Source: Thermodesulfobacteriota bacterium
GTDB lineage: Bacteria; Desulfobacterota; GWC2-55-46
Direction: 5' to 3'
NCBI GenBank assembly: GCA_030583865.1
Contig: CP129479.1
Span: forward strand, 2,637,053-2,701,052
Length of the DNA: 64,000 bases
The position numbers were made by a program, and so were the translations under genes. The notes under the pieces are model-generated. The model was not told the origin of the DNA. It ran no database searches and saw only the letters and a list, made by a program, of their open reading frames with translations. Positions 43,707 to 61,805 of the stretch are shown here, piece after piece; position 1 is the first letter of the stretch; each line of letters begins with the position of its first letter.

Positions 43707-43740
43707 AAAAAAAGAGGGCAGGCCCCGTGGCCTGCCCTCT
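43707..43740 (-). terminator. Rho-independent terminator of the cytochrome cluster
   Basis: AGAGGGCAGGCCCCGTGGCCTGCCCTCT hairpin followed by seven U on the minus-strand transcript, 20 nt after the last cytochrome gene. Confidence 0.8.
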
Positions 43741-43760
43741 CGATGCGATCCGGACTTATA

Positions 43761-44621
43761 TTATTTCTTCTCCGTCCCCGCGTCCGCCTTTTCGCCTGCC
43801 TTCTCGCCCTCCTTACCGTCCTTTCCGGCGTCCGTCTCCTCTATGACCGGAGCCGGCTGGGAATGGCACCTGAAGCAGTCGTCTATGGGGAAGGCCACCT
43901 TGGTATGGCATACGCCGCAGTACTGCCCTGAGATTATCTTCATCATGTTCATCTCCGGGTTCCCGCCCTGCTGCTGCTTGAATATGGACTCGTGGCACGA
44001 GGTGCAGTCCAGGACCTTTGTATGCGCCTTATGCGGGTACTTGACGTCCGGCGGGCTCGGCTTGAACTTGGTCGTCGGGATTATTATGTCCATGTCGAAC
44101 TCGAAGAGCTCGTCGGTTCCGTCCGGGTTTGCCGCGGCTTTTGAGGCGCCGGTCTCCAGCGCCTTTACCCAGTCTACCTTGTTCCCGAAGTAGTCCTTGG
44201 GGTGGTCCTTCAGCCTCTCGGCCATGTTCCGATCTTGCAGAAGGCCCTGTGAATGGCACCTGTCGCATTCAAACGGCGCGAAGGCTATGTTGCCGTTATG
44301 GCAGGTCCCGCACTGCTTGCCCTCGAATATCTCGGCCATGGTTATCTCGGCCGTGCCGGCCTTGAAGCTGAAACCGAGGTCCGTATGGCAGACCTTGCAC
44401 GAGAATTTGTCCCGGTGCACCCAGTGCGGGAACACAACTGGCCGCATGTCGTTCTTGCTCGCGTTCTTGTCAAGGACCACGTTCCCGTACGTCTCAGGGT
44501 TCTTGGGCTTCCTCAGGTCGGTCTCCCATGTCACGCCGGCCTGGGCCCATTGATAGACGAAAAACCCCCCGGCGGCCAGGGCCGCCGCGGTCAAAAATCC
44601 CACTAACCTGATGCTACGCAC
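43761..44621 (-). CDS. Hexahaem c-type cytochrome (two c7/c3-like triheme domains)
   Basis: Signal/TM anchor, six CxxCH motifs (CKVCH, CGTCH, CDRCH, CTSCH, CGVCH, CFRCH) and a K/E-rich C-terminal tail. Confidence 0.8.
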   Translation of the reverse strand: MRSIRLVGFLTAAALAAGGFFVYQWAQAGVTWETDLRKPKNPETYGNVVLDKNASKNDMRPVVFPHWVHRDKFSCKVCHTDLGFSFKAGTAEITMAEIFEGKQCGTCHNGNIAFAPFECDRCHSQGLLQDRNMAERLKDHPKDYFGNKVDWVKALETGASKAAANPDGTDELFEFDMDIIIPTTKFKPSPPDVKYPHKAHTKVLDCTSCHESIFKQQQGGNPEMNMMKIISGQYCGVCHTKVAFPIDDCFRCHSQPAPVIEETDAGKDGKEGEKAGEKADAGTEKK

Positions 44622-44649: not shown

Positions 44650-45072
44650 TCAATGACCTGTATGGCATAAGGCGCATAATTTCATGTACTCTACTCTTAA
44701 AGAGCCGGGGTGGATCGCTTTCCCGTGAGGCTCGTGGCAGGTATGGCAGACCATCTCGCCGTCGTCCGTCAGGGGAAGCCTTGCCGGAACGTGTATATTC
44801 ACTATTAGCCCCATGGGATGGCGGGTGACCGGGTGGTTGCCTATGTTCCCGTGGTGGCACTTGACGCACGTGGTAACCGGGTCCCTGGTAAGGAGCGGCG
44901 GCTGCTCGCTGTGGCACGTCGAGCAGAGGTCTTCCCTCCTGAAATCATGCGGGTTGACGATGACGGAGCGCCCCTCGCCGCCTTCCTCGGCTGCCCTGCA
45001 TTCCCTTGCAGCCAGTCCGGCGGCCGCGGCCATAAGACCCAGCGCCGCTATGGTGGTCAATATTATTTTCAT
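44650..45072 (-). CDS. Tetrahaem c-type cytochrome
   Basis: Signal peptide; CSTCH, CVKCH, CHTCH, CALCH. Confidence 0.75.
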   Translation of the reverse strand: MKIILTTIAALGLMAAAAGLAARECRAAEEGGEGRSVIVNPHDFRREDLCSTCHSEQPPLLTRDPVTTCVKCHHGNIGNHPVTRHPMGLIVNIHVPARLPLTDDGEMVCHTCHEPHGKAIHPGSLRVEYMKLCALCHTGH

Positions 45073-45108: not shown

Positions 45109-47313
45109 TCAATACGAGCAATCGCTCATATTAGTGCAGTCATAATTGACTTCGGTCCCGGGTATCGCGATTTCCTCGAAAGAATCGTTACATACCTTCT
45201 CGGTAGACGGGGTTATGGTCCTGAAGGTTATCTGCCCGTCCATGGCCCCGGTGGTCCTCGGGCTCTTGTACGATTCAACGCACGCCCCGTTCATGAGCCT
45301 GTACCCGAGCGGGTCCGAGTCCTCGAGCGTGCCCGCCGGGGCGTTGCTGCCGTGAATGCCCTTTATCTGGTCCACCGTCTCGGTCGGGTCATACCACCCG
45401 CCGTGGCACGAAAGGCACAGTATCCCGAACTTGTTCGAGTTGTTGCCGGTACCGGTCCCCTGCTTGTAGAAGGGGGAATCGGTCCCGAGCCCGTCGGGCG
45501 GGTGCGAGACCCTCGAATAATTCGCATTCGGGCCGATGTAGCCCTCGTCCCCGTAGACGTCCCTCTTGTGGCAGTTATAGCAGAAATTCCTGGTGGTGCC
45601 GAAACCAGTGGTGTTCGCCTTGAGTATCCATTTCTCGTTTGAGCCGTGCACGCCCGAGGGGTCGGAGGAGACGCTCGAGCCGTGGCAGGCGGAGCATGTA
45701 ATTGTGCTGTCGTGCGTTACGTTGTAATAGCCGGTGCGCTCCCAGGTCTCCGGGAGGTCGACATACCTGAACGTGTTCGTAAGCCCGAGGCCGTTGTCCG
45801 GCCAGTTGAGGTTTGCGCGCGGCGAGCCGGGAGGCACGTTCCTGCCCTGGGCGAAGACCGGGTGAAAGCCCATGTTGTTGATGTTGAAGTCCGCCGTGGG
45901 GTCGGACTGCTCGACCTGAGACCCGTCCGCGTTGCCCGAAGGCGCATAAGGCGGCATGCTGCCGTAGGCGTAATACGAATGGCATTTTATGCAGAGATAC
46001 CCTTCCAGGTTATTGCCGCCTGGGTTGGTGGAGGTAAAATCGACCACTTCGTAGGCCGTGACCGGCTCCCCGGCAACGGGCCAGGACGACGGCTTGACTC
46101 CCCAGCTCCCCAATATGTTCGCGCCGATAATGTTCCCGTTCACGCCGCCCATGGCCTGGTTCCCTTCCATGGCGCCGTGCGGGTTGTGGCAATCGGCGCA
46201 CTCCGCATGCCTGTTGTCCCTCAGGTTTTCAGCCGATTCCCTGGCCGGGTCGCCGGCGAACTCCCTCGAAGGGACATGCAGCCCCCATGTGGCCTTGACA
46301 TCGTGCTTGTAGGGGTATTCGAATTGCGCGGTAAGGTCCTTGGAGGCCACGTTCCCGTTGTGGCAGTTGAGGCATAGCCATTCCTCGTTCTCGATATTCG
46401 AGGTGGACGGGTTCGTGCCCTTCAAAAGCGCCTTCCCGGCCGCGCCGCCGTGCGAGCGGTGGCAGGCAAGGCAGCTCTGCATCTCGGGCGTGTCGTCGCT
46501 GTAACCGGTTTCGCCCAGGTCCTCGTGCCAGGGGTTCACCCCCTCGCCGTTCCACGTGGCCGTGGACGTGCCGTGCACCGAAGGGTTTGTCTCCCAGTAT
46601 CTCTTGTCATGGCATATCTGGCAGAGGCCGCCGTTTGAGAGGCTCCCGAGGAGGAACTTGGGGAACTCGGTTCCGTGCGGGTCGTGGCAGCTCGTGCACT
46701 GCATCATCCCCGCGCCGTCGAGCTTGACTCTCTGCTGGGACTCGCTCAGCGGGTCTCTTATCTCCTCGTTCGACGGATATGAGCGGGAGTACTCGAAGGA
46801 TATGGGGTGGTCATCCATCAGGTCCGTGCCTATATGGGACGTCGATATGGAACTCAGCTTCCCTTCCTCTATGCCGGCGCCGGTCACGCTCAGCTCCCCC
46901 CCGAGCCCCTTTCCCGGAAGGTTGAGGAGCGAGCCTATTGCTATGGTGCCGTCATGGCATGCCAGGCAGAGCTTCGATGAGCCGGTCGGCTGCCCGAGCG
47001 TAGGGGAGTTGGGGTCCAGCGTGGCGGCAAGGGTCTGGCTCATGTAGACGTCGTAGGTGGCCCCGGGGTCCTGCTTGTTCCACGCCGGCCCGGAAGGGTT
47101 TGCGTTATGAGGCGTGTGGCAGAAGACGCAGACCTCGGTCGTCTCGCCGGACTTTATCTCCCCCGGGGAAAGCGAGCCGAAGTTGTGCTTCGTGCCTGTG
47201 ACCGACGCAAGCGAATATCCGGCGGCAGCGGCCAGCAGCCCGGTTACCAACGCCGCGGCTATCACGTTACGTCCCTTTTTCCCGGCCTTTCCCTTCATCG
47301 GATTTAACGACAT
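45109..47313 (-). CDS. Large secreted multihaem c-type cytochrome (11 CxxCH)
   Basis: 734 aa with a signal peptide and eleven CxxCH motifs. Several have a distal His (CHTPH, CHDPH, CHNPH), typical of paired-CxxCH multihaem domains. Confidence 0.8.
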   Translation of the reverse strand: MSLNPMKGKAGKKGRNVIAAALVTGLLAAAAGYSLASVTGTKHNFGSLSPGEIKSGETTEVCVFCHTPHNANPSGPAWNKQDPGATYDVYMSQTLAATLDPNSPTLGQPTGSSKLCLACHDGTIAIGSLLNLPGKGLGGELSVTGAGIEEGKLSSISTSHIGTDLMDDHPISFEYSRSYPSNEEIRDPLSESQQRVKLDGAGMMQCTSCHDPHGTEFPKFLLGSLSNGGLCQICHDKRYWETNPSVHGTSTATWNGEGVNPWHEDLGETGYSDDTPEMQSCLACHRSHGGAAGKALLKGTNPSTSNIENEEWLCLNCHNGNVASKDLTAQFEYPYKHDVKATWGLHVPSREFAGDPARESAENLRDNRHAECADCHNPHGAMEGNQAMGGVNGNIIGANILGSWGVKPSSWPVAGEPVTAYEVVDFTSTNPGGNNLEGYLCIKCHSYYAYGSMPPYAPSGNADGSQVEQSDPTADFNINNMGFHPVFAQGRNVPPGSPRANLNWPDNGLGLTNTFRYVDLPETWERTGYYNVTHDSTITCSACHGSSVSSDPSGVHGSNEKWILKANTTGFGTTRNFCYNCHKRDVYGDEGYIGPNANYSRVSHPPDGLGTDSPFYKQGTGTGNNSNKFGILCLSCHGGWYDPTETVDQIKGIHGSNAPAGTLEDSDPLGYRLMNGACVESYKSPRTTGAMDGQITFRTITPSTEKVCNDSFEEIAIPGTEVNYDCTNMSDCSY

Positions 47314-47341: not shown

Positions 47342-48415
47342 TCAGCCTTCCCCGAGGTAGTCGAAGACCTGCACCCTGCTATTATACGAATCCGAGACGT
47401 AGATCCTGTTGCCGTTGTCTATGAATATGCCGCTCGGAAGCCAGAAGGTCCCGGCTGATTTGCCGAGGGTGCCGAAATTCAGGAGGAACCTTCCTTGCCT
47501 GTTGAATATCTGTATGGTATCAAAGAGGGCGTCGGCCACGTAAATGTTCCCGTCCTTGTCGAGGGCGATGCCCTTGGGCCTGCCGAAATCGCCTGTTCCG
47601 TCTCCCTGCCTGCCGAAGGAGCTCAAAAACTTCCCGTTGCCGTCGAATATCTGGACCCTGAAGTTCAACGAATCAACGACGTACACGTCGCCGCCCCGGT
47701 CCAGGGCCAAATCAACGGGGTAGTTGAACTCCCCTGTTTCTTTCCCTCTCCTTCCGAAGGAGCCGACCTCCGCGCCCTTCAGGTCAAAAATACGGATGCT
47801 ATGAGACGCGGTGTCGGATATGTATACCCTTGATTCAGTCTTGCTTATCGCGATGCCCGTGGGCCTTTCGCCCGCGGCGAACGAGAAGAGGAACTTGCCC
47901 TTGGGATTGAAGACAAAGGCCTTGCGGGCCACTGAATCGGTGACATAGATATTGTTCTGGCCGTCGGTGGCCGCCGCTATCGGGGATTCGAACCGCTCTT
48001 CCCCGGGCTCTTCTATGAGTGTGTAGTTCTTCCTGGCCAGGTCGAAGACATGCACCTTCTTGAAGGCCGTGTCCGCCACTATGAGCCTTCCGGCGGAATC
48101 GACGGTTACGCCGTACGGCTTTATGAGCCGGTCCCTTTTTTCACCGAGTATGAAATCGGCAATACGCCTGAAAAACCCCGTGTTCGCGCCGATGTCCTCG
48201 GGCCTGCTGATAGTCCGTAAATAACTTACCCTTGCCGGTTCGGGAGGAGACGGCCAGATAAGGGGCGTCTGCGGCGTAAGCATGCCGCTTTTCTGCTCCG
48301 GACCGAAAGCGCAGCCCGCGAGCGTAAGCGCGGCGAACGCCAACGCCGCGGCTAGCCTGAGGGCGCCTGATGACCGGGCCCTTTCGGCCCTTCTGTCTTT
48401 CGGGGCTGCATGCAT
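47342..48415 (-). CDS. NHL-repeat beta-propeller lipoprotein
   Basis: LTLAGC lipobox and six repeats of the form ...NIYVTDS / ..YVADT.. / FNxPxGIA..., typical of NHL propellers. Confidence 0.75.
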   Translation of the reverse strand: MHAAPKDRRAERARSSGALRLAAALAFAALTLAGCAFGPEQKSGMLTPQTPLIWPSPPEPARVSYLRTISRPEDIGANTGFFRRIADFILGEKRDRLIKPYGVTVDSAGRLIVADTAFKKVHVFDLARKNYTLIEEPGEERFESPIAAATDGQNNIYVTDSVARKAFVFNPKGKFLFSFAAGERPTGIAISKTESRVYISDTASHSIRIFDLKGAEVGSFGRRGKETGEFNYPVDLALDRGGDVYVVDSLNFRVQIFDGNGKFLSSFGRQGDGTGDFGRPKGIALDKDGNIYVADALFDTIQIFNRQGRFLLNFGTLGKSAGTFWLPSGIFIDNGNRIYVSDSYNSRVQVFDYLGEG

Positions 48416-48427
48416 CAGGAAATGACC

Positions 48428-49024
48428 CTACTTCCTGTGACAGTACTGGCAGATATCAAGCCCGGCGGACCTGAACCGCCGGGTAGTGTCGGCGCCCCAG
48501 TCGGCCCTGCCCGGAAGAAGCCCTCTCTCGTGCGGGTTGTGGCAGGTTGAGCATATTATCTGGCCTGTTTTCGGGTCGAGCGGCAGGATAGTGGGTATGT
48601 CCTTCAAGGTCATCCTGATGTTGTCGTGAATGGTCTTGGGGGGCACCCTCAAATGGTTCGGCGCTTTCTTCAAAACGCTAAGCATGGCCGTCGGCTGGAC
48701 CGTGGGGTGGACAGGGACCGTATGGCAGCTCCTGCAGAGCTGGACCGGGTCCTCGAAATAGAGCTTCACGTCCTTTATGGTCAGGTTCTTGTCGATTGCC
48801 GGGACTTCCTTATGGCATACAACGCACGTGCCCCAGAGCACCTCTCCGGTCTCGCCTATCTGGTTATGCGGGTTGATTACCGTCAAGAGCGCCTCGGCCC
48901 TCGGGTAGGGGGGCGGCTCGGGCGGGGCAGGAACGGCCGGGGCCTCTGCCGACCAGGCTTCGCCGGAGAAAAACAGGGCGCCTGCTAAAAAGATGACCTT
49001 GAGGATGCCGGATTTCCTTGACAT
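48428..49024 (-). CDS. Tetrahaem c-type cytochrome
   Basis: Signal peptide; CVVCH, CRSCH, CSTCH, CQYCH. Confidence 0.75.
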   Translation of the reverse strand: MSRKSGILKVIFLAGALFFSGEAWSAEAPAVPAPPEPPPYPRAEALLTVINPHNQIGETGEVLWGTCVVCHKEVPAIDKNLTIKDVKLYFEDPVQLCRSCHTVPVHPTVQPTAMLSVLKKAPNHLRVPPKTIHDNIRMTLKDIPTILPLDPKTGQIICSTCHNPHERGLLPGRADWGADTTRRFRSAGLDICQYCHRK

Positions 49025-49072
49025 GTTGGGCTACCTTCTTTGGATGCCGGCCCTGAGGCCGTTTCGTTTAGC

Positions 49073-50209
49073 TTACTCTTGCGTAAAGGCGTAAATGGAG
49101 CCGTCCTCGGAGCCTACGTAAACGGCATTGTCCGTGACCGCCGGAGAGGACTGGATGCTCCCCTCGGTCATGTACTTCCAGACCGTCTCGCCGGTATAGA
49201 GGTCCACGGCGTAAAAGCCGCCGTCGTCACAGCCGACGTAAAGGAGCCCGGAAGCCGAGACCGCCGGGGTCGAGTTCACCTCGTCCGGGAACTTGTAGAC
49301 CGCGAGCTCCCTGCCGTCCTTCCTGTTGAAGACGGTCACGTCGCCCTTTTTGGAAGCCATGTATATCCTGTCGGCGGTGACCACAGGAGAGGCGTAGGCG
49401 AGCTTGCCGAGGTTCTTCCGCCATACGTATTTGCCGTCTTTTACATTCAGAGCGTAAAGGGTCCTGTTATACGAGGATACGTAGACTATGCCGTCCCGCA
49501 CTGCCGGGGTGGAGTATATGGCGGATTCGGTCCTCAACTGCCAGTTCCTTCCGCCGCTCTTCGCGGAGGCGGAGTATATCACCCCGTTCTTGCCCGCGTA
49601 ATATATCGCGCCGTCGGCATAGGCCGGGGAGGCGTATATGCCGCTGTATTTTTCGTAATCCGGGACGTTCATCCTCCAAACCCTCTGGCCGTCCTTTGTC
49701 CGGAGGGCGTAGAGGTAGAGGTCCTTGGAGCCGATATAGACATTGTCCTCGGCTACAACAGGCGAAGTGAGGACCGGGCCGCCGGTCTCGTGCTTCCAGA
49801 CGAGCTTGCCGGTCTCGGCCTCGAGAGCGTAGACGGAGCCGTCCCTGGAGCCGAAATAGACCCTGCCCTTGTCGACCGCCGGGGACGAGAATATCTCGCC
49901 GTTGGTCTCGAACTTCCAGACAACGGCCCCGGTCTTCTCGTCAAGGGCGTAAAGGTGCTTGTCATACGAGCCCACGAAGACCTTGCCCTTGTAGACCGCC
50001 GGAGATGAATAGACCCTCCCGCCGGTCTTGAACTTCCACTTGAGCGCCAGGGGCGGCCTCGGCGCCCTCTCGACAAAGGGGACGTTATCGGGGCTCTTCA
50101 TGAACTTCGGCCAGTCCGCGGCGGCCTGTCCGAAAAAAAGCGGCAGCGCCGCCAATGAGAGGGCCAGCGCTGCTGTTATCTTCCCTGCTGTTGACCTCGA
50201 TTGCTGCAT
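49073..50209 (-). CDS. PQQ-like (BamB-type) eight-bladed beta-propeller protein, secreted
   Basis: Signal peptide and repeated ...G.VYALD..TG..VWK... PQQ-repeat pattern (eight or more times). Confidence 0.75.
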   Translation of the reverse strand: MQQSRSTAGKITAALALSLAALPLFFGQAAADWPKFMKSPDNVPFVERAPRPPLALKWKFKTGGRVYSSPAVYKGKVFVGSYDKHLYALDEKTGAVVWKFETNGEIFSSPAVDKGRVYFGSRDGSVYALEAETGKLVWKHETGGPVLTSPVVAEDNVYIGSKDLYLYALRTKDGQRVWRMNVPDYEKYSGIYASPAYADGAIYYAGKNGVIYSASAKSGGRNWQLRTESAIYSTPAVRDGIVYVSSYNRTLYALNVKDGKYVWRKNLGKLAYASPVVTADRIYMASKKGDVTVFNRKDGRELAVYKFPDEVNSTPAVSASGLLYVGCDDGGFYAVDLYTGETVWKYMTEGSIQSSPAVTDNAVYVGSEDGSIYAFTQE

Positions 50210-50217
50210 AGTTCCTC

Positions 50218-50805
50218 TCAGACCTTCATCTTTGAGATTTTGTGGGATATGCTCTTCCGCTCCCGGGTTATCCCCTCGAGGGCCGCGGCAAGCTCCTTTG
50301 CGTCCCGGGCGGAGGCCTCAAGCCCCCTCGAAGCCTTCTCAAGGGCTTGACCGGATTTTTTCAGGGGACCGAAAAAGGACGCGAGCGAGATGGTCATCGC
50401 ATTGAACGCGTCCGCCAGGGCGCCCGGCATTTCGCTCGAGACCCGCCGCGTAAGGTCGCCACTGGAGACCCCCTTCACGGCCTCCCTGAGCTCGATGAGC
50501 GGGAGCTCTATCCGGCGGAGGACAAAGTAGCCGACTACCGCGGAGACGGACAGGACCGCTGAAACGGTTACGGCTCCGAGTTTCAGCAAGACAGGGACCG
50601 CGATTTCAGAGGTGGTCCGTATCTTTATATGGATTTTATATAACCCCTGTCCAAGTTCCCTGTCAATTAAAAAATAGGCGGCGAGGAGGTTCAGAAGGAG
50701 CCCCAGGAGGACCGTTCCGGCAAAGGCAGCCGCGAACCTCGACTGCAGCTTCCGGTCTATGAAATAGTTCCTGCGCCTCCAACTGGCATCGCGCGCGTCC
50801 CGCAT
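50218..50805 (-). CDS. HAMP-domain membrane protein without output domain
   Basis: Two TM helices, then a HAMP motif (LPLIELREAVKGVSSGDLTRRVSSEMPGALADAFNAMTISL), then ~60 aa of coiled coil. A paralogue lies at 51707-52333. Confidence 0.6.
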   Translation of the reverse strand: MRDARDASWRRRNYFIDRKLQSRFAAAFAGTVLLGLLLNLLAAYFLIDRELGQGLYKIHIKIRTTSEIAVPVLLKLGAVTVSAVLSVSAVVGYFVLRRIELPLIELREAVKGVSSGDLTRRVSSEMPGALADAFNAMTISLASFFGPLKKSGQALEKASRGLEASARDAKELAAALEGITRERKSISHKISKMKV

Positions 50806-50907
50806 CGCTCCTCCGGGCCCGGGCTCGATTCCGGGCTATATGATAGTACCCTGGAATTAAAACCCCATTAATCCAGGGTTAATTCGTCCATGCTCTCCTA
50901 AAGAGGT

Positions 50908-51720
50908 TCATTTATTGTGGCACGCAAGGCAGAGCCTGCTGTATTCGTTGCTCATGACGAGCTCGTTATGGAGCTTCGAGAACGGGTTATGGCAGCTCCC
51001 GCACCCGACGTTGCCGGCAAAGAGCTTTATCTCGGGCGGGAGCTTGTCCACCGGCTTATACGCGCCCCGGTACTTGCGCCTGGCGTCTATGTAGGATACG
51101 CCAATGGGGTGGCTGAGGCCGGAAAGCCCCGACCTGTGGAATAGCGGCCCCGCGATTTCCCTTCCTCCGACGACCGCGTCCGGCCCTGTCAGGGCGTCGT
51201 GGCAAGCCATGCACCTGAGTGATAGCTCGTCGAGCACGCCCCCGACCTCGGTTGCGACGAACTTCAACGAGGCGGAGCCCGTGACGTGGGCCGAGCCGAG
51301 CGAGAGCTTATGGAGCTCGCTCTCAAGGTCGCCGTGGCAAAGCATGCAGAAGCCGGGGCCCTCGGCCCTGGAGCGGAGGCGGAACGGCCCGAAGCCCTCC
51401 ATGTGCACCGGGTGGCAAGTAATGCAGGTCACGTCCCCCTTCCAATCGAGCGGCAGGTTCGCGGGCACCTGCATCGAGGGCCTCACGTCCACCGGATGCG
51501 ACAGCTCGAACTCGGCCTCGTGGCAGTCCACGCACATCCTCGATATGTCCAGCAGGAAGGCGCGGGGAGTGTCCCCGGGGGACGGCTCGGCAATATGGCA
51601 TTCTAGGCACCGGCCCTTGAAGTCGTGATAGCTCGTCCACTGCCGGGAGTAGAGGAGAGCCGCGGCGCCCACCGCGGCTATTGCCATTGATATGGCCAGC
51701 GCCCTCTTAATCGCCTTCAT
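50908..51720 (-). CDS. Heptahaem c-type cytochrome
   Basis: Signal peptide; CLECH, CVDCH, CITCH, CMLCH, CMACH, CGSCH, CLACH. Confidence 0.8.
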   Translation of the reverse strand: MKAIKRALAISMAIAAVGAAALLYSRQWTSYHDFKGRCLECHIAEPSPGDTPRAFLLDISRMCVDCHEAEFELSHPVDVRPSMQVPANLPLDWKGDVTCITCHPVHMEGFGPFRLRSRAEGPGFCMLCHGDLESELHKLSLGSAHVTGSASLKFVATEVGGVLDELSLRCMACHDALTGPDAVVGGREIAGPLFHRSGLSGLSHPIGVSYIDARRKYRGAYKPVDKLPPEIKLFAGNVGCGSCHNPFSKLHNELVMSNEYSRLCLACHNK

Positions 51721-52333
51721 GGGCCTTTACGCTCGAGAGGGCCAGCTGGAGCCTCTTTACGTTCTCGAATAGTTCGCGGACCGCGGACCCGGCCTCGGGC
51801 GGGAGCGGCCCTCCCTTTTCGAGGATTTTCAGAAGCTCCTGCTCGGATTTCTCAAGGGCTTCGATTGCTTCGGCTGCGGCCCTTGCCGTGTGGTTTACCG
51901 ACCGGACCATCGAGTTCAAGTCTTCCGCGAGCGCGACGAGCTGGTCGTTACCCCGAAGCCGCGTAACAACAGTAAGGTCGCCCGAGCCTATCTCTTCCAT
52001 ATTCCGGGCGAGCCTGAAGACCGGCCCCGCTATCCTGTGGGAATAGAGTATTGAGACCGCGGCAACGGCCGCGGTCGCGACCCCGAGGAGCGCTACAGTG
52101 TAAGAGGAGGCGAAGACAAGCGGCAGGGCCTTTACCTTGAGCTCGTAAAGCGTGAAGACGGCCTGGCCGTATGAGTCTCCCACGCCCCTCGAAAGGGAGA
52201 GTACTAGGAGGGCAAGGAGCCCGGCGGCCCCGGCAAGCGTCGCAAGGCACAGCTTGAGCCCGAACCTGAGCTTGAAGCCCAGCCCGAGGAGGCGCGAGGC
52301 GTCCGTTTTTTTACGGGTATCCGGAGCGGCCAT
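51707..52333 (-). CDS. HAMP-domain membrane protein without output domain (paralogue)
   Basis: Same TM-TM-HAMP-coiled-coil architecture (GPVFRLARNMEEIGSGDLTVVTRLRGNDQLVALAEDLNSMV); overlaps the downstream heptahaem cytochrome gene by 14 nt. Confidence 0.6.
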   Translation of the reverse strand: MAAPDTRKKTDASRLLGLGFKLRFGLKLCLATLAGAAGLLALLVLSLSRGVGDSYGQAVFTLYELKVKALPLVFASSYTVALLGVATAAVAAVSILYSHRIAGPVFRLARNMEEIGSGDLTVVTRLRGNDQLVALAEDLNSMVRSVNHTARAAAEAIEALEKSEQELLKILEKGGPLPPEAGSAVRELFENVKRLQLALSSVKAHEGD

Positions 52334-52668
52334 CTTTACCGGCTATAAAAGAGGATTTCAAATCGGTCCGGGAGAAAATAAACGAGGTGAGTGCTGAAAA
52401 CGCGGGGCAGGATTCACAGCCATTATATCCGAATACGGCGCGCTTGTGAAGCCCGGGAGCGCCTCCCTGCCGCCCCTTCATTGAAAATTATTGAAAAAAC
52501 CAGCCGTTATGAATATAATAAAAAGCTCTTTTCCGTCTTGCCCGCCGGAAGCTCGACTGAACGGCGGGGCAGAAGCCGCGGGCCCCCTTTCCGCGGCCCA
52601 AGTCAGGGGTGCGGCGGGAAAAGGCGGGAAGGATTTTTCCCGAACACAATCTGGGAGGATACCTAAAG

Positions 52669-53712
52669 ATGGCAAAGGTCATGGCAAAGGACGCGTTTCT
52701 CAAGGCATGCCGCAGGGAAAAGGCCGGCTACACCCCGGTGTGGCTCATGCGCCAGGCTGGCCGCTACATGAAGGAGTACATGGCCATACGGGAGAAGCAT
52801 TCGTTCCTCGAGATGTGCAGGAACCCCGAGATAGCCGCCGAGGTGACGCTCCAGCCCATAAAGGCTTTCGACCTTGACGCGGCCATAATCTTCGCGGACA
52901 TACTCCTTCCGCTCGACGGCATGGGCATAAACCTCGAGTTCGCGAAAAACGAGGGGCCCGTGATATCCAATCCCGTCCGCACGAGGAAGGACATAGACGC
53001 CGTAAGGGTCATAAACCCCGAGGAGCACGTGCCCTATCTCCTGAAGGCCATAAAACTCGTAAAAGCGGAGCTTGCCGGCAAGGTCCCGCTCATAGGTTTT
53101 TCCGGCGCGCCTTTCACGCTCGCGAGCTACATCATCGAGGGCGAGGGCTCCAAGAACTACATAAACACGAAAAAGCTCATGTACTCGGACCCCGAGGGCT
53201 GGAAGGCCCTCATGGAGAAAATATCCGACGTCATTATAGTCTACCTCGAGGCGCAGATAGAGGCCGGCGTGGACGCGGTCCAGCTATTCGACAGCTGGGT
53301 CGGGTGTCTCGGGCCGGACGACTACAAAAACTACGCCATGCCTTACAGTAAGAGAATTATCGAGACCGTGAGAAAGAAGGGCGTACCTTTCATAAACTTC
53401 AGCACCAATACCGGGACATACCTCGACACCATCGCCAAGACCGGCGGGGACGTGGTGGGCGTAGACTGGAAGGTGAGGCTCGACGAGGCCTGGAAGACCA
53501 TAGGCTATGACAAGGCCATCCAGGGGAACCTCGACCCCGTGGTCCTCTTCGGCCCTGTAAGCGAGATACGGAAGAGGGTCAAAGATATACTCGACATGGC
53601 GGGCGGAAGGCCCGGCCACATATTCAACCTCGGCCACGGCATAATACTCGGCACGCCTGTAGATAACGTCCGGGCCGTAATAGACAGCGTTCACGAGCTG
53701 AGCGCAAAGTAA
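52669..53712 (+). CDS. hemE: Uroporphyrinogen decarboxylase
   Basis: PVWLMRQAGRYMKEY signature. The start is at the internal ATG 52669, preceded by a GGGAGGA RBS. Confidence 0.9.
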   Translation: MAKVMAKDAFLKACRREKAGYTPVWLMRQAGRYMKEYMAIREKHSFLEMCRNPEIAAEVTLQPIKAFDLDAAIIFADILLPLDGMGINLEFAKNEGPVISNPVRTRKDIDAVRVINPEEHVPYLLKAIKLVKAELAGKVPLIGFSGAPFTLASYIIEGEGSKNYINTKKLMYSDPEGWKALMEKISDVIIVYLEAQIEAGVDAVQLFDSWVGCLGPDDYKNYAMPYSKRIIETVRKKGVPFINFSTNTGTYLDTIAKTGGDVVGVDWKVRLDEAWKTIGYDKAIQGNLDPVVLFGPVSEIRKRVKDILDMAGGRPGHIFNLGHGIILGTPVDNVRAVIDSVHELSAK

Positions 53713-53736
53713 AAAGGTGAGAAGGGGCGTCCTGAG

Positions 53737-54669
53737 ATGAGTGAACTTCCGTTAAAGGGAATACTCCTCCTCGCGTTCGGCGGGGCGGACTCCATAGAGA
53801 GCGTAGAGCCTTTCGTAAAGAACGTCCTGAAGGGCAGGACCGTTACGCCGGAGCTCGTGGCGAGGACCGTCGAGCGCTATAAGCTCATAGGCGGAAGGTC
53901 CCCTCTCCTGGAAATAACCCTTCAGCAGGCCAAGGCCCTCGAAGAGGAGCTCAACTCGGGCCCGGACGTCGCCTTCCGCTACAAGGCCTACGTGGGCATG
54001 AGGTACTGGCACCCCTTCATAGCCGAGACCGTGAAGCGGATGAAGGAAGACGGGGTCGAGGAGGCGGTAGCCATAATCATGTCGCCCTTCACCTCGATCG
54101 TGGCCACCGGCGCCTACGAGACTGACGTTGAGAACGCGCTCAACAGCCTCGGCAGCGGCCCGGCCATATCTTTCATGCCATGCTGGCACATAGAGCGGGC
54201 CTACCTCGACCTCGTGGCCGGGAATATCCTGAAGGAGCTCTCGGAATTTACGGACCCGGGGGACGCGCTCGTCATATTCAGCTCGCACAGCCTTCCGAAG
54301 GTCGCCCTGCAGGGCGACCCTTACGAGATGATGGTGAACCAGTCCGCCTCCCTCATAATGGAAAGGGTCGGGAAGGCCGATTACAGGATAGCGTACCAGA
54401 GCAAGGGCTCCGGGCCCAGGGAATGGCTCGGGCCGGAGACCGAGGAGGTCATAGCGGAGGCCGCGAAGCGCGGGAAAAAGGGCGTAGTAGTAGTGCCGCT
54501 CGGGTTTGCCGCCGACCACGTTGAGACTCTCTATGATATAGACATCCTCTTCAAAGACACAGCGCGCTCGAACGGGCTGGAGTGGAGGCGCACTCCGTCC
54601 CTCAACACGGACCCGGCCTTCATCCGCATGCTCGCCGGCATAATGAAAAAGCCCGCTGAAAAAAAATAA
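53737..54669 (+). CDS. hemH: Ferrochelatase
   Basis: GILLLAFGG...RYKLIGGRSPL...MRYWHP...SHSLP signature. Confidence 0.9.
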   Translation: MSELPLKGILLLAFGGADSIESVEPFVKNVLKGRTVTPELVARTVERYKLIGGRSPLLEITLQQAKALEEELNSGPDVAFRYKAYVGMRYWHPFIAETVKRMKEDGVEEAVAIIMSPFTSIVATGAYETDVENALNSLGSGPAISFMPCWHIERAYLDLVAGNILKELSEFTDPGDALVIFSSHSLPKVALQGDPYEMMVNQSASLIMERVGKADYRIAYQSKGSGPREWLGPETEEVIAEAAKRGKKGVVVVPLGFAADHVETLYDIDILFKDTARSNGLEWRRTPSLNTDPAFIRMLAGIMKKPAEKK

Positions 54670-56129
54670 TGAAAAGAGTCGTGATAATCGGCGGCGGCAT
54701 CGCCGGGCTCGCAACCGCGTGGAGCCTCCGCGAGCAGGCGCCCCAGGGCGCGGATTTCGAGATAGTCCTCCTTGAGCGGAACGAGAGGTTCGGAGGCAAC
54801 ATACGCACCGAGAAAGAGGGCGGCTTCCTGATCGAGGGCGGCCCCGACTGCTTCCTCTCGGAGAAGCCCTGGGCAATGGCGCTCTGCAAGCGCATAGGCC
54901 TTTCAGGGAAGTTCCTCCCCACTAACGACAGGCACAGGAAGACCTTTGTGCTCTCGGGCGGCCGCCTCCACGTGCTCCCCGAGGGGGTCATCCTCATGAT
55001 CCCCACCAAGATACTCCCGCTCGCGACCTCAAGCCTCATATCCTGGCCCGGAAAGGTCCGGATGGCAATGGACCTCTTCGTACCGAAGAGGAAGGGCGGC
55101 GGGGACGAGAGCCTCGGCGATTTCGTAAGAAGGCGCCTCGGGAAAGAGGCGCTCGAAAAGATAGCCGAGCCGCTCGTGGCGGGCGTGCACGCGGGCGACC
55201 CCGAGACCATGTCAGTGAGGGCGAGCTTCCCGAAGTTCGTCCAGCTCGAAGAAGAGAGCGGAAGCCTCATCCGGGGCATGATAAAGAGGATGGCGCAGGC
55301 CGCAGCGCACAGAAAAACCGGAAAGCCGGGCGGCCAGTCCGCTCCGGGCAATAAAGTCACGATGTTCATGACATTGAAGGACGGCCTCTCGGAGCTCGTA
55401 GAGACGCTCACCTCAAGGCTCGAGGGCATGGAGAAGACGGTACTAAGGAAGGGCGTCCAGGCCGTATCGATCGAGAAGGCCGGCGAGAAGGCCGGGGCAG
55501 GCTACCGGGTGGACCTCGAAGGCGGCGGCTCGATAGAAGCTGACGCGGTCATCGTCGCAGCCCCGGCGTGGGCGGCGGCCTCGATATTGAAGGGCGAGGA
55601 CGCGGCGCTCTCGGAGAAGCTCCTGACCATCCCCTACGTTTCCACGGCCACCGTCTCCATAGCGTTCAAAAAGAAGGACATAAAGCACCCGATGAACGGC
55701 TTCGGGTTCGTGGTGCCGAAGGTCGAAGGGCGGAAGATCATGGCCGCGACCTGGACTTCCGTCAAGTTCGCGGGCAGGGCCCCGGAGGACTCGGTCCTCA
55801 TAAGGTGCTTTGTCGGCGGGTCTAAAAACGCCGAGCTCGTCTCGCTCGGAGACGCCGATATGATAAAGATGGTAAGGGAAGAGCTCCGGGACATAATGGG
55901 CATAGGGGCAGAGCCGGTGCTCGCCAGGGTCTTCAGGTGGAGGAACTCGATGCCCCAGTACACAATCGGCCACGAGGAGCGCGTCGCATGGATTGACGAG
56001 CGCCTCAAGAGCCATCCGGGGCTCCATCTCGCGGGGAGCGCCTATTACGGCATAGGCATAAGCGACAGTATCCGCTACGGCGAGGTCGTGGCCAAGCGGG
56101 TGATAGACCAGATCCAGGGCAAAAACTGA
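54669..56129 (+). CDS. hemY: HemY-type protoporphyrinogen/coproporphyrinogen oxidase (FAD)
   Basis: VVIIGGGIAGLATAW Rossmann/FAD motif with HemY-family length and layout. Its ATG overlaps the hemH stop (TAATG). Confidence 0.85.
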   Translation: MKRVVIIGGGIAGLATAWSLREQAPQGADFEIVLLERNERFGGNIRTEKEGGFLIEGGPDCFLSEKPWAMALCKRIGLSGKFLPTNDRHRKTFVLSGGRLHVLPEGVILMIPTKILPLATSSLISWPGKVRMAMDLFVPKRKGGGDESLGDFVRRRLGKEALEKIAEPLVAGVHAGDPETMSVRASFPKFVQLEEESGSLIRGMIKRMAQAAAHRKTGKPGGQSAPGNKVTMFMTLKDGLSELVETLTSRLEGMEKTVLRKGVQAVSIEKAGEKAGAGYRVDLEGGGSIEADAVIVAAPAWAAASILKGEDAALSEKLLTIPYVSTATVSIAFKKKDIKHPMNGFGFVVPKVEGRKIMAATWTSVKFAGRAPEDSVLIRCFVGGSKNAELVSLGDADMIKMVREELRDIMGIGAEPVLARVFRWRNSMPQYTIGHEERVAWIDERLKSHPGLHLAGSAYYGIGISDSIRYGEVVAKRVIDQIQGKN

Positions 56130-56449
56130 CCATCCTTTCCGGTCCGTTTCAACCGGAATAAGCCCCTGCAAGCCGGTAAACCAAAAAACTTTGCGGCAGG
56201 CCATTCAATAGCCCATCACCTCCGGTCCTGATCCAATACCTTCTCTACAAATCAAATCCAGTCTGCTGAAAAGCTCAAGGTGCAGGATGTCGAATAATGA
56301 GGCATGCTTTCCTGCCTGATTTTGAAGGCGGCGCGTTCAATGGATTTTTCAGCAGCTGGTTAAAGAAAACCCTGCTTTCTTCCGATAAGTAATCGGGGCG
56401 GGGGATGCGTTTGGTTTCCCTCCCCGTTTATTTTTGGAAGGAAGGCTTG

Positions 56450-60272: not shown

Positions 60273-60338
60273 AATGACCTCCTCTTTCTTGAAAAGACGG
60301 AACCGGAAATCGCCCTTTTCTTCTACCCGGAGGTAATA

Positions 60339-60353
60339 GCAAAAGGAGTGCCA
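60339..60353 (-). promoter_or_regulatory. Sigma-54 (-24/-12) promoter
   Basis: The minus strand reads TGGCAC-TCCTT-TTGCT, a match to the TGGCAC-N5-TTGCW consensus, about 65 nt upstream of the ATG at 60272. Confidence 0.6.
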
Positions 60354-60452: not shown

Positions 60453-61805
60453 TTATTCGAGGCCATAGGCCCTGATTTTGGTAAGTAGCGTCTTGTAGTC
60501 TATCTTGAGGATGGAGGCTGTCCTGGCCTTGTTGCCGGAAGATAGCTTGAGCGCCTCCCTTATCGCGGCCCTTTCCGCCTCCCGCGCCGCGTGGGACGAG
60601 ACCTCCTTCAAGGGCATGACAGCCCCGGCCGTGCGGCCGTATCTTTCCTCGGCCCCGAGGTCGAGGTGCGTTGGGAGGACCTCGGCCCCGCCCGCCAGGA
60701 GGGCGGCGCGGCGCATCACGTTCTTAAGCTCCCTTATATTGCCCGACCAGGAATGTTTGAGGAGCGTCTCCATTGCCGGGCCGGAGATGGAGAGCGGCGG
60801 CCTTTTAAGCTCCCCGCACGCGTCCGCAAGGAACCTGCCGGCCAAAAACGAAGTGTCGTCCGCCCGCTCGCGTAGCGGCGGGAGCGTTACCGTAAACTCG
60901 TTCAGCCTGAAGTAGAGGTCTTCCCGGAAGCCGCCTTCCTTTACAAGGGCCCTCAGGTCCTTGTTCGAGGCCGCGAGTATCCGCACATCGACCGGGACGG
61001 GCTTGCTTGAGCCCACGCGGCAGACCTGTCTTGCTTCTACGGCTCCGAGGAGCTTCGCCTGGAGCGCGGCAGAGGTGTTCTCGAGCTCGTCTATGAAGAG
61101 CGTGCCGCCAGAGGCGGCCTCGAAGTATCCGCCCCGGGCCCTGTCCGCGCCGGTGAAGGCGCCCTTCTCGGAACCGAAGAGCTCGCTTTCTATGAGGGGC
61201 TCGGGGATGGCGCCCATATCGACCCTGACGAACGGCCCTTCTTTCCTGCGGCTCATGCGGTGGATGAGGCCCGCGATCATGGATTTCCCCGTGCCTGTCT
61301 CGCCCTGTATTATTATCGAAAAGTCGCTTGCCGCTACCCTTACGAGCTGGCCGATTACGCGCCTTATGGCCTCGCCCCTGCCGAGCGCCGATTCGAGAGA
61401 GGCGTCGACCGCGGACTTAAGCCTTGCCACATCGCGCTCAAGCTCGAGCTTCTCGACCGCCTTCCGGATGAGAAGCGTAAGGGATTCCATGTCCGCGGGC
61501 TTGGTCACGAAATCATGGGCCCCGTTCTTTATGGCCTCCACCGCCGATTGTATGTCGGCGTATGCGGTAAGGAAAATGACCGGGACAGCAGGGTCGATCT
61601 CCTTCAGGGCCCTTAGCGTCTCGAAGCCGTCCATGCCGGGCATCCTGTGGTCGAGTAGCACGGCGTGCGGCCTGAACCTGCTGAATTCCTTTACGCCGGA
61701 TGGGCCGTCCGGGGCCTGGGAAGTGGAGAACCCCCTCATGGAGAGGAGCTCCGAGAGGACGAGCCTTATGTTCTCCTCGTCGTCTATTACGAGCACCTTG
61801 TGCAA
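60453..61805 (-). CDS. Sigma-54-dependent response regulator (NtrC family: REC - AAA+ - HTH)
   Basis: Receiver domain (VLVIDDE...LLDHRMPGMDG), GETGTGKS Walker A, GAFTGA sigma-54 contact motif and a C-terminal Fis-type HTH. Confidence 0.9.
   Translation of the reverse strand: MHKVLVIDDEENIRLVLSELLSMRGFSTSQAPDGPSGVKEFSRFRPHAVLLDHRMPGMDGFETLRALKEIDPAVPVIFLTAYADIQSAVEAIKNGAHDFVTKPADMESLTLLIRKAVEKLELERDVARLKSAVDASLESALGRGEAIRRVIGQLVRVAASDFSIIIQGETGTGKSMIAGLIHRMSRRKEGPFVRVDMGAIPEPLIESELFGSEKGAFTGADRARGGYFEAASGGTLFIDELENTSAALQAKLLGAVEARQVCRVGSSKPVPVDVRILAASNKDLRALVKEGGFREDLYFRLNEFTVTLPPLRERADDTSFLAGRFLADACGELKRPPLSISGPAMETLLKHSWSGNIRELKNVMRRAALLAGGAEVLPTHLDLGAEERYGRTAGAVMPLKEVSSHAAREAERAAIREALKLSSGNKARTASILKIDYKTLLTKIRAYGLE

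What the first reader, a model, noticed from the sequence alone, without database searches (positions are those of the whole stretch)
50218..52333. Two paralogous membrane proteins consisting only of TM-TM-HAMP-short coiled coil, each immediately upstream of cytochrome genes
HAMP domains are signal-transfer linkers and almost always connect to an output domain (kinase, MCP, GGDEF). The two proteins at 51707-52333 and 50218-50805 have two TM helices, a canonical HAMP motif and only about 60 aa of coiled coil. The gene order is duplicated: HAMP-cyt7 at 50908-52333, then HAMP-PQQ-cyt4 at 48428-50805. The first HAMP gene overlaps its cytochrome partner by 14 nt. They could act as assembly, anchoring or signalling partners that work through protein-protein contacts.
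Basis: partly seen in the sequence, partly recalled or inferred. Interest (0 to 1): 0.55.

Follow-up and report, generated by a model that had tools for sequence, protein, structure and literature searches.

The report
Output-less HAMP proteins heading cytochrome operon
Two small inner-membrane proteins made only of two membrane helices, a HAMP signal-relay domain and a short helical hairpin are real, conserved parts of a nine-gene multihaem cytochrome operon, and they belong to a large uncharacterised family of HAMP proteins without any output domain.

Summary
Both ORFs are real genes on the minus strand. Each has two TM helices, a HAMP domain and about 55-60 C-terminal residues, and the 14-nt overlap with the 7-haem cytochrome gene is there. 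The C-terminus is predicted as a helix-turn-helix hairpin, not a long coiled coil.

They are not decayed chemoreceptors. About 80 relatives are all 189-211 aa, dN/dS is 0.2-0.4 in every region, and MCPsignal matched 0 of 77 members.

They are full-length paralogues (hhalign 98%). They are the first and third genes of a nine-gene operon: HAMP-A, cyt7, HAMP-B, PQQ-like propeller, cyt4, NHL lipoprotein, 11-haem cytochrome with an OmcE-like N-terminal domain, cyt4', 2x c7. This order is kept in every sufficiently long locus from uncultured Desulfobacterota (family A in 15 GTDB species). One divergent MAG lineage keeps both pairs, A>cyt7 and B>propeller.

Both belong to a large family of about 190-aa output-less HAMP proteins. 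Its core members sit between a SurA-like lipoprotein gene and a secreted HExxH protein gene, and 0 of 80 such loci carry cytochromes.

Best reading, inferred only: each is a dimeric transmembrane adaptor coupled to the exported protein encoded just downstream. The cytoplasmic partner is unknown.

The parts
52422..52450 (-). Sigma-70-like promoter (TTCACA-17-TATAAT, 11 of 12) upstream of HAMP-A. It faces a divergent 11-of-12 promoter for hemE at 52491-52519 (+).
51707..52333 (-). HAMP-A, 208 aa, first gene of the operon. Layout by residue (nt in brackets): cytoplasmic pre-TM motif FKLRFGLKLCL 15-27; TM1 28-47; short periplasmic loop 48-70 (nt 52124-52192); TM2 71-96; HAMP 97-146 (nt 51896-52045); helical hairpin 147-208 (nt 51710-51895).
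50908..51720 (-). cyt7: 270-aa, 7-haem c-type cytochrome that overlaps HAMP-A by 14 nt. It has an N-terminal hydrophobic segment (res 4-26) followed by the conserved SQWTSYHDFEGRCLxCH. Whether that segment is an anchor or a cleaved signal is unresolved. The C-terminal part is weakly OmcE-like.
50849..50878 (-). Palindrome CCCTGGATTAA-N7-TTAATTCCAGGG inside the conserved AT-rich 102-nt spacer between cyt7 and HAMP-B. Possible internal promoter or operator.
50218..50805 (-). HAMP-B, 195 aa. Layout by residue (nt in brackets): N-terminal RRRNYFIDRKLQSRF motif; TM1 25-47; periplasmic loop 48-66 (nt 50608-50664; 12 of 19 residues invariant in the family); TM2 67-95; divergent HAMP 96-141 (nt 50383-50520); hairpin 142-195 ending in the conserved ISKxKV.
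49073..50209 (-). PQQ/BamB-like beta-propeller with a cleavable signal peptide. It starts 8 nt after the HAMP-B stop.
48428..49024 (-). cyt4: 198-aa tetrahaem cytochrome, homologous to the N-terminal module of cyt7.
47342..48415 (-). NHL-repeat six-bladed propeller lipoprotein (lipobox LAGC).
45109..47313 (-). 734-aa, 11-haem cytochrome. Residues 22-237 (4 haems) align with the whole OmcE nanowire subunit (7TFS_A, E 1e-21).
44650..45072 (-). 140-aa tetrahaem cytochrome related to the N-terminal module of cyt7.
43761..44621 (-). 286-aa cytochrome with two c7-type trihaem domains (TIGR04257, 121 bits).
43712..43741 (-). Intrinsic-terminator-like hairpin (13-bp stem plus T run) that closes the nine-gene unit.

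Best explanation
HAMP-A and HAMP-B are two divergent paralogues of a large, uncharacterised family of about 190-aa inner-membrane proteins.

Shared anatomy: a basic amphipathic N-terminal motif in the cytoplasm, TM1, a short conserved periplasmic loop, TM2, a HAMP domain, and a helix-turn-helix hairpin of about 50-60 residues with a conserved C-terminal (F/V/I)-K-(V/T/L). There is no kinase, MCP or other output domain.

In this lineage the two proteins have been recruited into an OmcE-related multihaem cytochrome and beta-propeller operon. They are integral parts of that operon, and each heads one half of it.

Proposed mechanism (inferred):
- Each forms a homodimer, as HAMP domains do.
- Its periplasmic loop and TM bundle contact the exported protein encoded immediately downstream. 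For A this is the 7-haem cytochrome. For B it is the PQQ-like propeller.
- The HAMP domain converts that contact into a rearrangement of the cytoplasmic hairpin bundle. An unlinked cytoplasmic partner reads this rearrangement. Alternatively the relay runs inside-out.

The nearest analogies are partner-dependent sensing by HtrII or by intramembrane-sensing kinases, and trans-acting output as in Cache_haem-HAMP receptors.

Shown: the anatomy, the family membership, purifying selection, strict gene linkage and tight gene spacing. Inferred: the physical contacts, the direction of signalling and the existence of a cytoplasmic reader.
For: Anatomy: two TM segments, HAMP and hairpin.

Full-length paralogy: hhalign 98.2%.

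Family: a profile search of 1.84e9 representatives gave 201 clusters with E<1e-30. Of the 147 best-150 hits that were new proteins, 131 are 150-260 aa; the long hits examined are poly-HAMP MCPs. An HMM built without A or B hits both over their full length (E 1e-32 and 3e-28).

No output domain: MCPsignal 0 of 77 and HisKA 1 of 77 at noise level.

Functional constraint: dN/dS 0.18-0.45 in the TM, HAMP and hairpin regions.

Conservation profile: in B the 19-residue periplasmic loop is the most conserved element (12 of 19 invariant, 0.37 bits). In A the HAMP (14 of 50 invariant), TM2 and the pre-TM motif are the most conserved.

Linkage:
- The gene order HAMP-A>cyt7>HAMP-B>PQQ>cyt4>NHL>cyt734 is kept in every locus with enough sequence. 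Family A occurs in 15 GTDB species, and there are further metagenome contigs.
- Two of these loci lie in different genomic surroundings, so the cluster moves as a unit.
- A divergent cluster in another MAG lineage keeps A>cyt7 and B>PQQ although two TPR genes are inserted between the pairs.

Spacing in the window and the four relatives with gene calls: A>cyt7 runs from a 14-nt overlap to a 4-nt gap, and B>PQQ has gaps of 8 to 28 nt.

Family-wide precedent for pairing with exported proteins: in 80 metagenome loci the HAMP-only gene is directly followed by a secreted HExxH protein gene in 52 of 58 testable cases. It is directly preceded by a SurA-like lipoprotein gene in 49 of 56.

Operon structure: all eight other products of the operon carry signal peptides or a lipobox, so the HAMP proteins are its only link to the cytoplasm. 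A promoter and a terminator bracket the nine genes.

Precedent for trans output: an output-less HAMP receptor signalling through a non-covalent partner is described in bioRxiv 10.64898/2026.05.25.727664.
Against: - No physical interaction was tested. The monomer models are of modest confidence (pLDDT 65 and 73), and Foldseek gave no significant hit.
- No cytoplasmic partner is encoded in the operon.
- The loop motif (I-K/R-x-T-x-D/E-x-x-x-P) is shared with family members that have nothing to do with cytochromes. It may therefore be a generic structural feature rather than a partner-specific interface.
- The N-terminal segment of cyt7 may be a cleaved signal peptide (conserved V/L-Y-S|Q-W) rather than a membrane anchor. 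Its NrfH-like match is far below threshold (E 1e-4, 22 bits against a cut-off of 134), and the PDB profile search gave only NrfB at E 0.1.
- The HAMP of family B is poorly conserved (2 of 46 invariant).
- In most loci the two HAMP genes show the lowest identity to the window of any gene in the cluster (40-62% at the distances where the others are 48-75%).
Confidence: 0.45

Rival explanations
1. Purely structural role. The proteins are inner-membrane tethers or scaffolds that hold or organise the periplasmic cytochrome and propeller assembly (or help export or assemble an OmcE-like filament). No information is passed to the cytoplasm, and the HAMP and hairpin serve only as a dimerisation module.
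For: No cytoplasmic partner or output is encoded nearby. In family B the periplasmic loop is far more conserved than the HAMP. The operon resembles OmcE nanowire clusters, for which accessory secretion or anchoring proteins are proposed (bioRxiv 10.1101/2025.10.22.684050).
Against: In family A the HAMP is the most conserved region (14 of 50 invariant, including the AGP and GSGDL motifs). The cytoplasmic hairpin is under purifying selection (dN/dS 0.26-0.40) and has a conserved C-terminal motif across the whole family. A 19-23-residue loop is a small handle for a scaffold.
Confidence: 0.25
2. The two proteins modulate a specific nearby cytoplasmic system. Candidates are the dCache-HAMP-GAF-GGDEF cyclase (56405-58612), by hetero-association of HAMP or hairpin bundles, and the membrane-associated haem-synthesis enzymes HemH and HemY encoded divergently. 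Either would tie c-di-GMP or haem supply to the state of the 32-haem periplasmic assembly.
For: hemE-hemH-hemY is divergently adjacent, sharing a 275-bp promoter region, in 13 loci. The GGDEF gene follows in L001, L005, L009/L010 and L012. The operon encodes 32 haem-binding sites.
Against: The adjacency is not universal. L024, L025, L114 and L115 carry the same nine-gene cluster in other surroundings, and L002 lacks the GGDEF gene. Nothing in the sequences points to these partners.
Confidence: 0.1
3. HAMP-A and HAMP-B form one A-B heterodimeric receptor rather than two homodimers.
For: They always co-occur in the same cluster and are full-length homologues.
Against: They are only 27% identical, with different loops and AS1 motifs (SHRIAGP against RRIELPL). 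Core family members occur singly, one per three-gene module, so they must work as homo-oligomers. In the divergent cluster the two genes stay attached to different downstream partners.
Confidence: 0.1
4. They are truncated or pseudogenised chemoreceptors or sensor kinases, as some database names ('methyl-accepting chemotaxis protein') imply.
For: Weak profile matches of TM2-HAMP plus about 50 residues to the MCPs PcaY and Tsr (E 1e-5 to 6e-4). Sub-threshold NCBIfam hits to HK and MCP models cover only the HAMP region.
Against: Length is conserved at 189-211 aa in about 80 homologues and 163-251 aa in 78 wider-family ORFs. dN/dS is below 0.5. MCPsignal matched 0 of 77, there is no H-box and no ATPase domain. 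The extreme C-terminus is conserved.
Confidence: 0.02

Closest known systems
Cache_haem-HAMP (CHH) receptors with an operon-encoded Ser/Thr kinase (Pseudomonas azotoformans; bioRxiv 10.64898/2026.05.25.727664)
   Same: A membrane receptor that ends in a HAMP domain 'uncoupled' from any intrinsic output. It signals through a separate protein and has a link to c-type haem chemistry in the periplasm.
   Different: CHH has a large periplasmic Cache_haem sensor in cis and a cytoplasmic kinase partner in the same operon. The proteins here have only a 19-23-residue loop and an extra C-terminal hairpin, and no cytoplasmic partner gene is linked.
Af1503 of Archaeoglobus fulgidus (the model HAMP protein; PDB 2L7I, 4GN0 and others)
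   Same: TM-TM-HAMP with no output domain and unknown function. Its HAMP is matched weakly by the family A profile (E 0.14-0.7).
   Different: From my own knowledge: Af1503 has a sizeable extracytoplasmic domain and stops right after the HAMP. The present family has a minimal loop, a conserved N-terminal motif and a post-HAMP hairpin.
HtrII transducers and intramembrane-sensing histidine kinases (BceS/LiaS type)
   Same: Two TM helices joined by a very short outside loop, then a HAMP. The stimulus is received from a partner protein rather than from an own sensor domain. This is the working analogy for HAMP-A with cyt7 and HAMP-B with the propeller. The HtrII fragment 2F95_B is a weak profile hit (E 0.04).
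   Different: Those proteins carry full MCP or kinase outputs. Here the output is absent, and the partner contact is only inferred from gene linkage.
Canonical methyl-accepting chemotaxis proteins (the name some databases give these proteins)
   Same: TM2-HAMP and the first helix after it resemble PcaY and Tsr (E 1e-5).
   Different: No MCPsignal domain (0 of 77) and no long hairpin with a kinase-control tip. Only about 60 residues follow the HAMP.
OmcE cytochrome-nanowire gene clusters of Desulfuromonadia (bioRxiv 10.1101/2025.10.22.684050)
   Same: The operon context contains an OmcE-like tetrahaem module (E 1e-21 to 7TFS_A), further multihaem cytochromes and two beta-propeller proteins.
   Different: The OmcE-like module is the N-terminal third of an 11-haem, 734-aa protein. 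No large beta-barrel gene is present. That description of OmcE clusters does not mention HAMP proteins.

Membership tests
HAMP domain (Pfam PF00672) | Sequence match to the HAMP profile above the curated threshold | tested here: met
   A scores 31.6 bits against a cut-off of 25, and 18 of 20 family A members match. B alone scores 18.1 bits, below the cut-off. B is nevertheless full-length homologous to A (hhalign 98.2%) and to the wider family HMM.
HAMP domain (Pfam PF00672) | Position directly after the last TM helix; two amphipathic helices joined by a connector, with Pro in AS1 and Gly in the connector | tested here: met
   A has SHRIAGP...GSGDLT...DQL...LNSM and B has RRIELP...SGDLT...AFNAM. 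AF2 shows TM2 continuous with AS1, then a break, then AS2.
HAMP domain (Pfam PF00672) | Parallel four-helix bundle formed by a homodimer | not testable with these tools
   Only monomer prediction was available.
Methyl-accepting chemotaxis protein | MCP signalling domain (PF00015), a long cytoplasmic hairpin with a kinase-control tip | tested here: not met
   0 of 77 members match MCPsignal at E<=0.1. Only 55-62 residues follow the HAMP.
Sensor histidine kinase | DHp with H-box (HisKA) and an ATPase domain | tested here: not met
   HisKA matched 1 of 77 members at E 0.096 and there is no HATPase_c. The invariant N147-H148-x-x-R151 of family A is absent from B and from the wider family.
Output-less HAMP receptors of the CHH/Af1503 type | Membrane protein whose cytoplasmic part contains a HAMP and no enzymatic or MCP output | tested here: met
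Output-less HAMP receptors of the CHH/Af1503 type | Extracytoplasmic sensor domain between the TM helices | tested here: not met
   The loops are 23 residues (A) and 19 residues (B).
Output-less HAMP receptors of the CHH/Af1503 type | Cytoplasmic partner (Ser/Thr kinase with helical HAMP-binding repeats) encoded in the same operon | tested here: not met
   All other operon products are exported. No kinase was found among the window ORFs examined.
Short 2TM-HAMP-hairpin family (uncharacterised, defined here) | Length about 160-250 aa; N-terminal +RRxYFIxKxFQxxF motif; HAMP; helical hairpin; C-terminal (F/V/I)K(V/T/L) | tested here: met
   An HMM built without A or B matches both over their full length (E 1e-32 and 3e-28). 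Motif frequencies are given. A keeps SHRIAGP and the 'KxC' cysteine. B has lost both.
Short 2TM-HAMP-hairpin family (uncharacterised, defined here) | Core gene module: SurA_N-like lipoprotein > HAMP-only > secreted HExxH protein | tested here: not met
   In the window and its relatives the neighbours are cytochromes and a propeller. The core module is seen in 30 of 40 fully testable metagenome loci, and none of the 80 loci carries a multihaem ORF.
OmcE-type nanowire gene cluster (context) | OmcE-like tetrahaem subunit, further multihaem cytochromes and two beta-propeller lipoproteins | tested here: inconclusive
   The OmcE-like module is present, but fused into a 734-aa, 11-haem protein. There are two propellers, and only the NHL one has a lipobox.
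OmcE-type nanowire gene cluster (context) | Large outer-membrane beta-barrel gene in the cluster | tested here: not met
   None lies between the promoter and the terminator. The flanking genes examined are housekeeping.

The most novel reading that the evidence does not exclude
The short 2TM-HAMP-hairpin proteins are a widespread, previously unrecognised class of 'split' transmembrane relay. The idea is a generic output-less HAMP adaptor that pairs with whatever exported protein is encoded just downstream. That partner is a small HExxH metallopeptidase-like protein in the core module, and a multihaem cytochrome or a beta-propeller here. The adaptor would report the partner's state to an unlinked cytoplasmic reader, or would control the partner from inside. 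In this operon that would amount to a dedicated sensor or controller of an OmcE-like extracellular electron-transfer assembly, possibly tied to haem supply through the divergent hemEHY genes.
Probability: 0.25. Interest if true: 0.75.

Novelty: new variant of a known kind. Interest (0 to 1): 0.5.

Why it matters
HAMP domains are the textbook in-line relay between a sensor and an output in the same polypeptide. Only very recently has a HAMP receptor without output been shown to signal through a separate partner. This finding adds two things.

First, there is a large, coherent family of such proteins: hundreds of clusters at 50% identity, with a fixed length of about 190 aa and its own N- and C-terminal motifs.

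Second, two members of that family are built into a conserved multihaem cytochrome operon related to OmcE nanowire clusters.

If these proteins couple periplasmic electron-transfer machinery to the cytoplasm, they would be an entry point to a poorly understood question: how cells sense or control assembly of extracellular electron-transfer systems. They would also be a compact model for HAMP signalling in trans. If they are only scaffolds, the interest is modest.

Tried and rejected
- Pseudogene or truncated MCP/HK: rejected on conserved length, dN/dS and the absence of MCPsignal, HisKA and HATPase_c.
- Foldseek of both AF2 models against the PDB: no hit with E<0.1. The top, non-significant hits were HAMP/DHp-containing kinases, Aer2 poly-HAMP and designed helical bundles.
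- 'Rosetta stone' search for family members fused to an output: the longer hits were poly-HAMP MCPs, or had extra sequence with no Pfam domain.
- cyt7 as a NrfH/NapC-type quinol dehydrogenase anchor: only sub-threshold support, and the PDB profile search pointed to OmcE instead. Not adopted.
- Literature: searches for HAMP-only proteins or for HAMP genes in cytochrome, NHL or OmcS/OmcE clusters found no description of this family.
- Rfam on the whole window: no hit.
- Sigma-54 promoter near the operon: none.
- The spacer hairpin between cyt7 and HAMP-B is not thermodynamically unusual (z = -0.75).
- The combined alignment A3 was too divergent for the genome scan.
- The HExxH partner family of the core module has no Pfam, NCBIfam or PDB relative.
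Full report
OBSERVATION. The region 43.7-52.4 kb carries nine co-directional genes on the minus strand. HAMP-A is 51707-52333 (208 aa) and HAMP-B is 50218-50805 (195 aa). Each has two hydrophobic segments. Pfam finds a HAMP domain right after the second one: 31.6 bits in A (cut-off 25) and 18.1 bits in B. The gene after HAMP-A (50908-51720) has seven CXXCH motifs and overlaps HAMP-A by 14 nt. The one at 48428-49024 has four. BLASTP between A and B is weak (27% over 116 aa, E 7e-4). Profiles of the two families, however, align over their whole length (hhalign 98.2%, E 3.5e-14). AlphaFold2 models (pLDDT 65 and 73) give the same four long helices in both proteins: pre-TM motif plus TM1; TM2 plus AS1; AS2 running on for about 25 residues; a tight turn; then a return helix of about 22 residues. 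The 'short coiled coil' is therefore a helical hairpin.

NOT DECAYED RECEPTORS. Family A has 27 database relatives and family B has 54. Almost all are 189-211 aa, apart from a few weak outliers, one likely over-extended call and one fragment. Against close relatives (87% and 80% identity), dN/dS is 0.18-0.45 in the membrane part, the HAMP and the hairpin alike. None of 77 members matches the MCP signalling domain, and one matches HisKA at E 0.096. The only MCP resemblance is a weak profile match of TM2-HAMP plus about 50 residues to PcaY and Tsr (E 1e-5 to 6e-4). That match explains the database name 'methyl-accepting chemotaxis protein'.

CONSERVED LINKAGE. The scan of one genome per GTDB species found family A in 15 species, all uncultured Deltaproteobacteria/Thermodesulfobacteriota MAGs (UBA5799, GWA2_55_10, groundwater bins); GWC2_55_46 came from a protein look-up. 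Every locus with enough sequence has the same order: HAMP-A, cyt7, HAMP-B, PQQ-like propeller, cyt4, NHL propeller lipoprotein, 11-haem cytochrome, small tetrahaem cytochrome, double c7 cytochrome. Two further loci (L114, L115) hold the same nine genes in unrelated surroundings, so the cluster behaves as a unit. A divergent version (L031; the same protein also occurs in a bin labelled Nitrospirae) has two TPR genes inserted. It still keeps HAMP-A-like directly before cyt7 and HAMP-B-like directly before the propeller. In the window and the four relatives with gene calls, the A>cyt7 spacing runs from a 14-nt overlap to a 4-nt gap, and B>propeller has gaps of 8 to 28 nt. In the window an 11-of-12 sigma-70-like promoter lies upstream of HAMP-A, and a 13-bp-stem terminator follows the last cytochrome gene. 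The 102-nt spacer before HAMP-B is conserved and AT-rich and contains a palindrome. It may hold an internal promoter, in which case each HAMP gene heads one transcription unit.

WHAT THE OPERON IS. Residues 22-237 of the 734-aa cytochrome carry exactly four haem motifs and align with the entire OmcE nanowire subunit (7TFS_A, E 1e-21; 9YUQ_N, 2e-20). The cyt7 profile also hits OmcE weakly. Published OmcE clusters contain two multihaem cytochromes, two beta-propeller lipoproteins, OmcE and a large beta-barrel (bioRxiv 10.1101/2025.10.22.684050). The present operon has the cytochromes and two propellers but no barrel, and its OmcE-like module is fused into a larger protein. All eight non-HAMP products have signal peptides or a lipobox. 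The HAMP proteins are therefore the operon's only connection to the cytoplasm. Altogether the operon encodes 32 haem sites.

THE WIDER FAMILY. A profile of A plus B searched against 1.84 billion representative proteins gave 201 clusters with E<1e-30. Of the 147 best-150 hits that were new proteins, 131 are 150-260 aa full-length matches, and the long hits examined are poly-HAMP MCPs that score through repeats. The family shares four features: an N-terminal +RRxYFIxKxFQxxF motif, often a Cys at the start of TM1, SH(K/R)IAGP at the start of the HAMP, and a C-terminal (F/V/I)K(V/T/L). An HMM built without A or B matches both end to end. A metagenome scan with the SH[KR]IAGP[LI][YF] pattern returned at least 576 relatives, and the best 80 loci were analysed. 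All 78 complete ORFs are 163-251 aa (median 188.5). A SurA_N/EpsD-like lipoprotein gene lies directly upstream in 49 of 56 testable loci. A secreted protein of about 190 aa, with invariant HExxH and a downstream Glu, lies directly downstream in 52 of 58. Both are present in 30 of 40. No locus has a multihaem ORF. Output-less HAMP proteins are therefore common. Their core context is a three-gene envelope module, and the cytochrome association seen in the window is a lineage-specific recruitment of two divergent members.

MECHANISM. What is shown: the anatomy, family membership, selection, linkage and spacing. What is inferred follows. Conservation is highest where a partner-dependent sensor would need it. 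In B the 19-residue periplasmic loop has 12 invariant residues (YFLIDREL..LY.IH..IRTTS), against 2 of 46 in the HAMP. In A the HAMP (14 of 50), TM2 and the pre-TM motif dominate. Across the family the HAMP-only gene is almost always followed, with little or no spacing, by a gene for an exported protein. I therefore favour a dimeric transmembrane adaptor. Its loop and TM bundle would contact the downstream-encoded exported protein (cyt7 for A, the propeller for B). Its HAMP would pass the resulting change to the hairpin bundle and the conserved C-terminal tail, where an unlinked cytoplasmic protein reads it, or the relay would run in reverse. The analogies are HtrII and intramembrane-sensing kinases for input, and the Cache_haem-HAMP receptor with its Ser/Thr kinase for output in trans.

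WEAK POINTS. No interaction was tested and no cytoplasmic partner is known. The loop motif is partly family-wide. The N-terminal segment of cyt7 may be cleaved rather than anchoring, and its NrfH-like signal is sub-threshold. In most loci the HAMP genes show the lowest identity to the window of any gene in the cluster.

RIVALS. A purely structural tether; modulation of the nearby GGDEF cyclase or of the divergently encoded HemH and HemY, an adjacency that is common but not universal; and an A-B heterodimer.

NOVELTY AND VERDICT. I found no description of this family, or of HAMP genes in cytochrome clusters, in the searchable literature. Output-less HAMP receptors as a kind are known (Af1503, CHH). 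I rate this as a new variant of a known kind. Interest is moderate, at 0.5.

Noticed in passing
L034-L113 (metagenome loci); also L006 9452-11142, L026 5126-6951, L029 5191-7175, L032 7519-9188: There is a conserved three-gene module: SurA_N/EpsD-like lipoprotein, then a short output-less HAMP protein, then a secreted protein of about 190 aa with invariant HExxH plus a downstream Glu. The secreted protein has no Pfam, NCBIfam or PDB relative. In 80 loci the upstream gene is present in 49 of 56 testable cases, the downstream gene in 52 of 58, and both in 30 of 40. Two of the loci with gene calls (L026, L032) sit beside exopolysaccharide genes. The module appears undescribed.
   Followed up: partly
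window 45109-47313 (-): The 734-aa, 11-haem cytochrome has an N-terminal four-haem module (res 22-237) that aligns with the complete OmcE nanowire subunit (7TFS_A, E 1e-21; 9YUQ_N, 2e-20). The operon looks like an OmcE-type cluster without the beta-barrel, and with the OmcE-like module fused to seven more haems.
   Followed up: partly
window 52334-56129 (+ strand genes 52609-53712, 53737-54669, 54669-56129): hemE, hemH and hemY (haem biosynthesis) are transcribed divergently from the 32-haem operon. They share a 275-bp region that holds two 11-of-12 sigma-70-like promoters back to back. The adjacency is kept in 13 related loci and is absent in L024, L025, L114 and L115.
   Followed up: partly
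window 50806-50907, palindrome at 50849-50878: The conserved AT-rich spacer between cyt7 and HAMP-B contains CCCTGGATTAA-N7-TTAATTCCAGGG followed by TACTATCATATAG. TTAAC/TTAAT repeats are conserved even in relatives that are only about 55% identical. This could be an internal promoter or operator. The hairpin is not thermodynamically unusual (z = -0.75).
   Followed up: partly
window 56405-58612 (+): A dCache-HAMP-GAF-GGDEF diguanylate cyclase gene lies beyond hemY. The same arrangement occurs in L001, L005, L009/L010 and L012, but not in L002.
   Followed up: no
window 60338-60353 (-) and 60453-61805 (-): A perfect sigma-54 -24/-12 consensus (TGGCAC-N5-TTGCT) lies just downstream of a gene for an NtrC-type sigma-54 activator. 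It is the only zero-mismatch site in the window.
   Followed up: no
window 52247-52249 (Cys29 of HAMP-A) and 51881-51892 (N147-H148-T-A-R151): Family A has an invariant Cys at the cytoplasmic end of TM1. This corresponds to the 'KFC' motif found in 56 of 131 representatives and 64 of 79 metagenome ORFs of the wider family. Family A also has an invariant N-H-x-x-R just after the HAMP, which is absent from family B and the wider family. A possible redox or phospho-related role is pure speculation.
   Followed up: no
A5 alignment (family B and relatives): 20 of 57 members give weak, sub-threshold Pfam hits (best E 0.0014) to MscS_TM, the inner-membrane domain of mechanosensitive channels. This probably reflects the composition of the TM region.
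   Followed up: no
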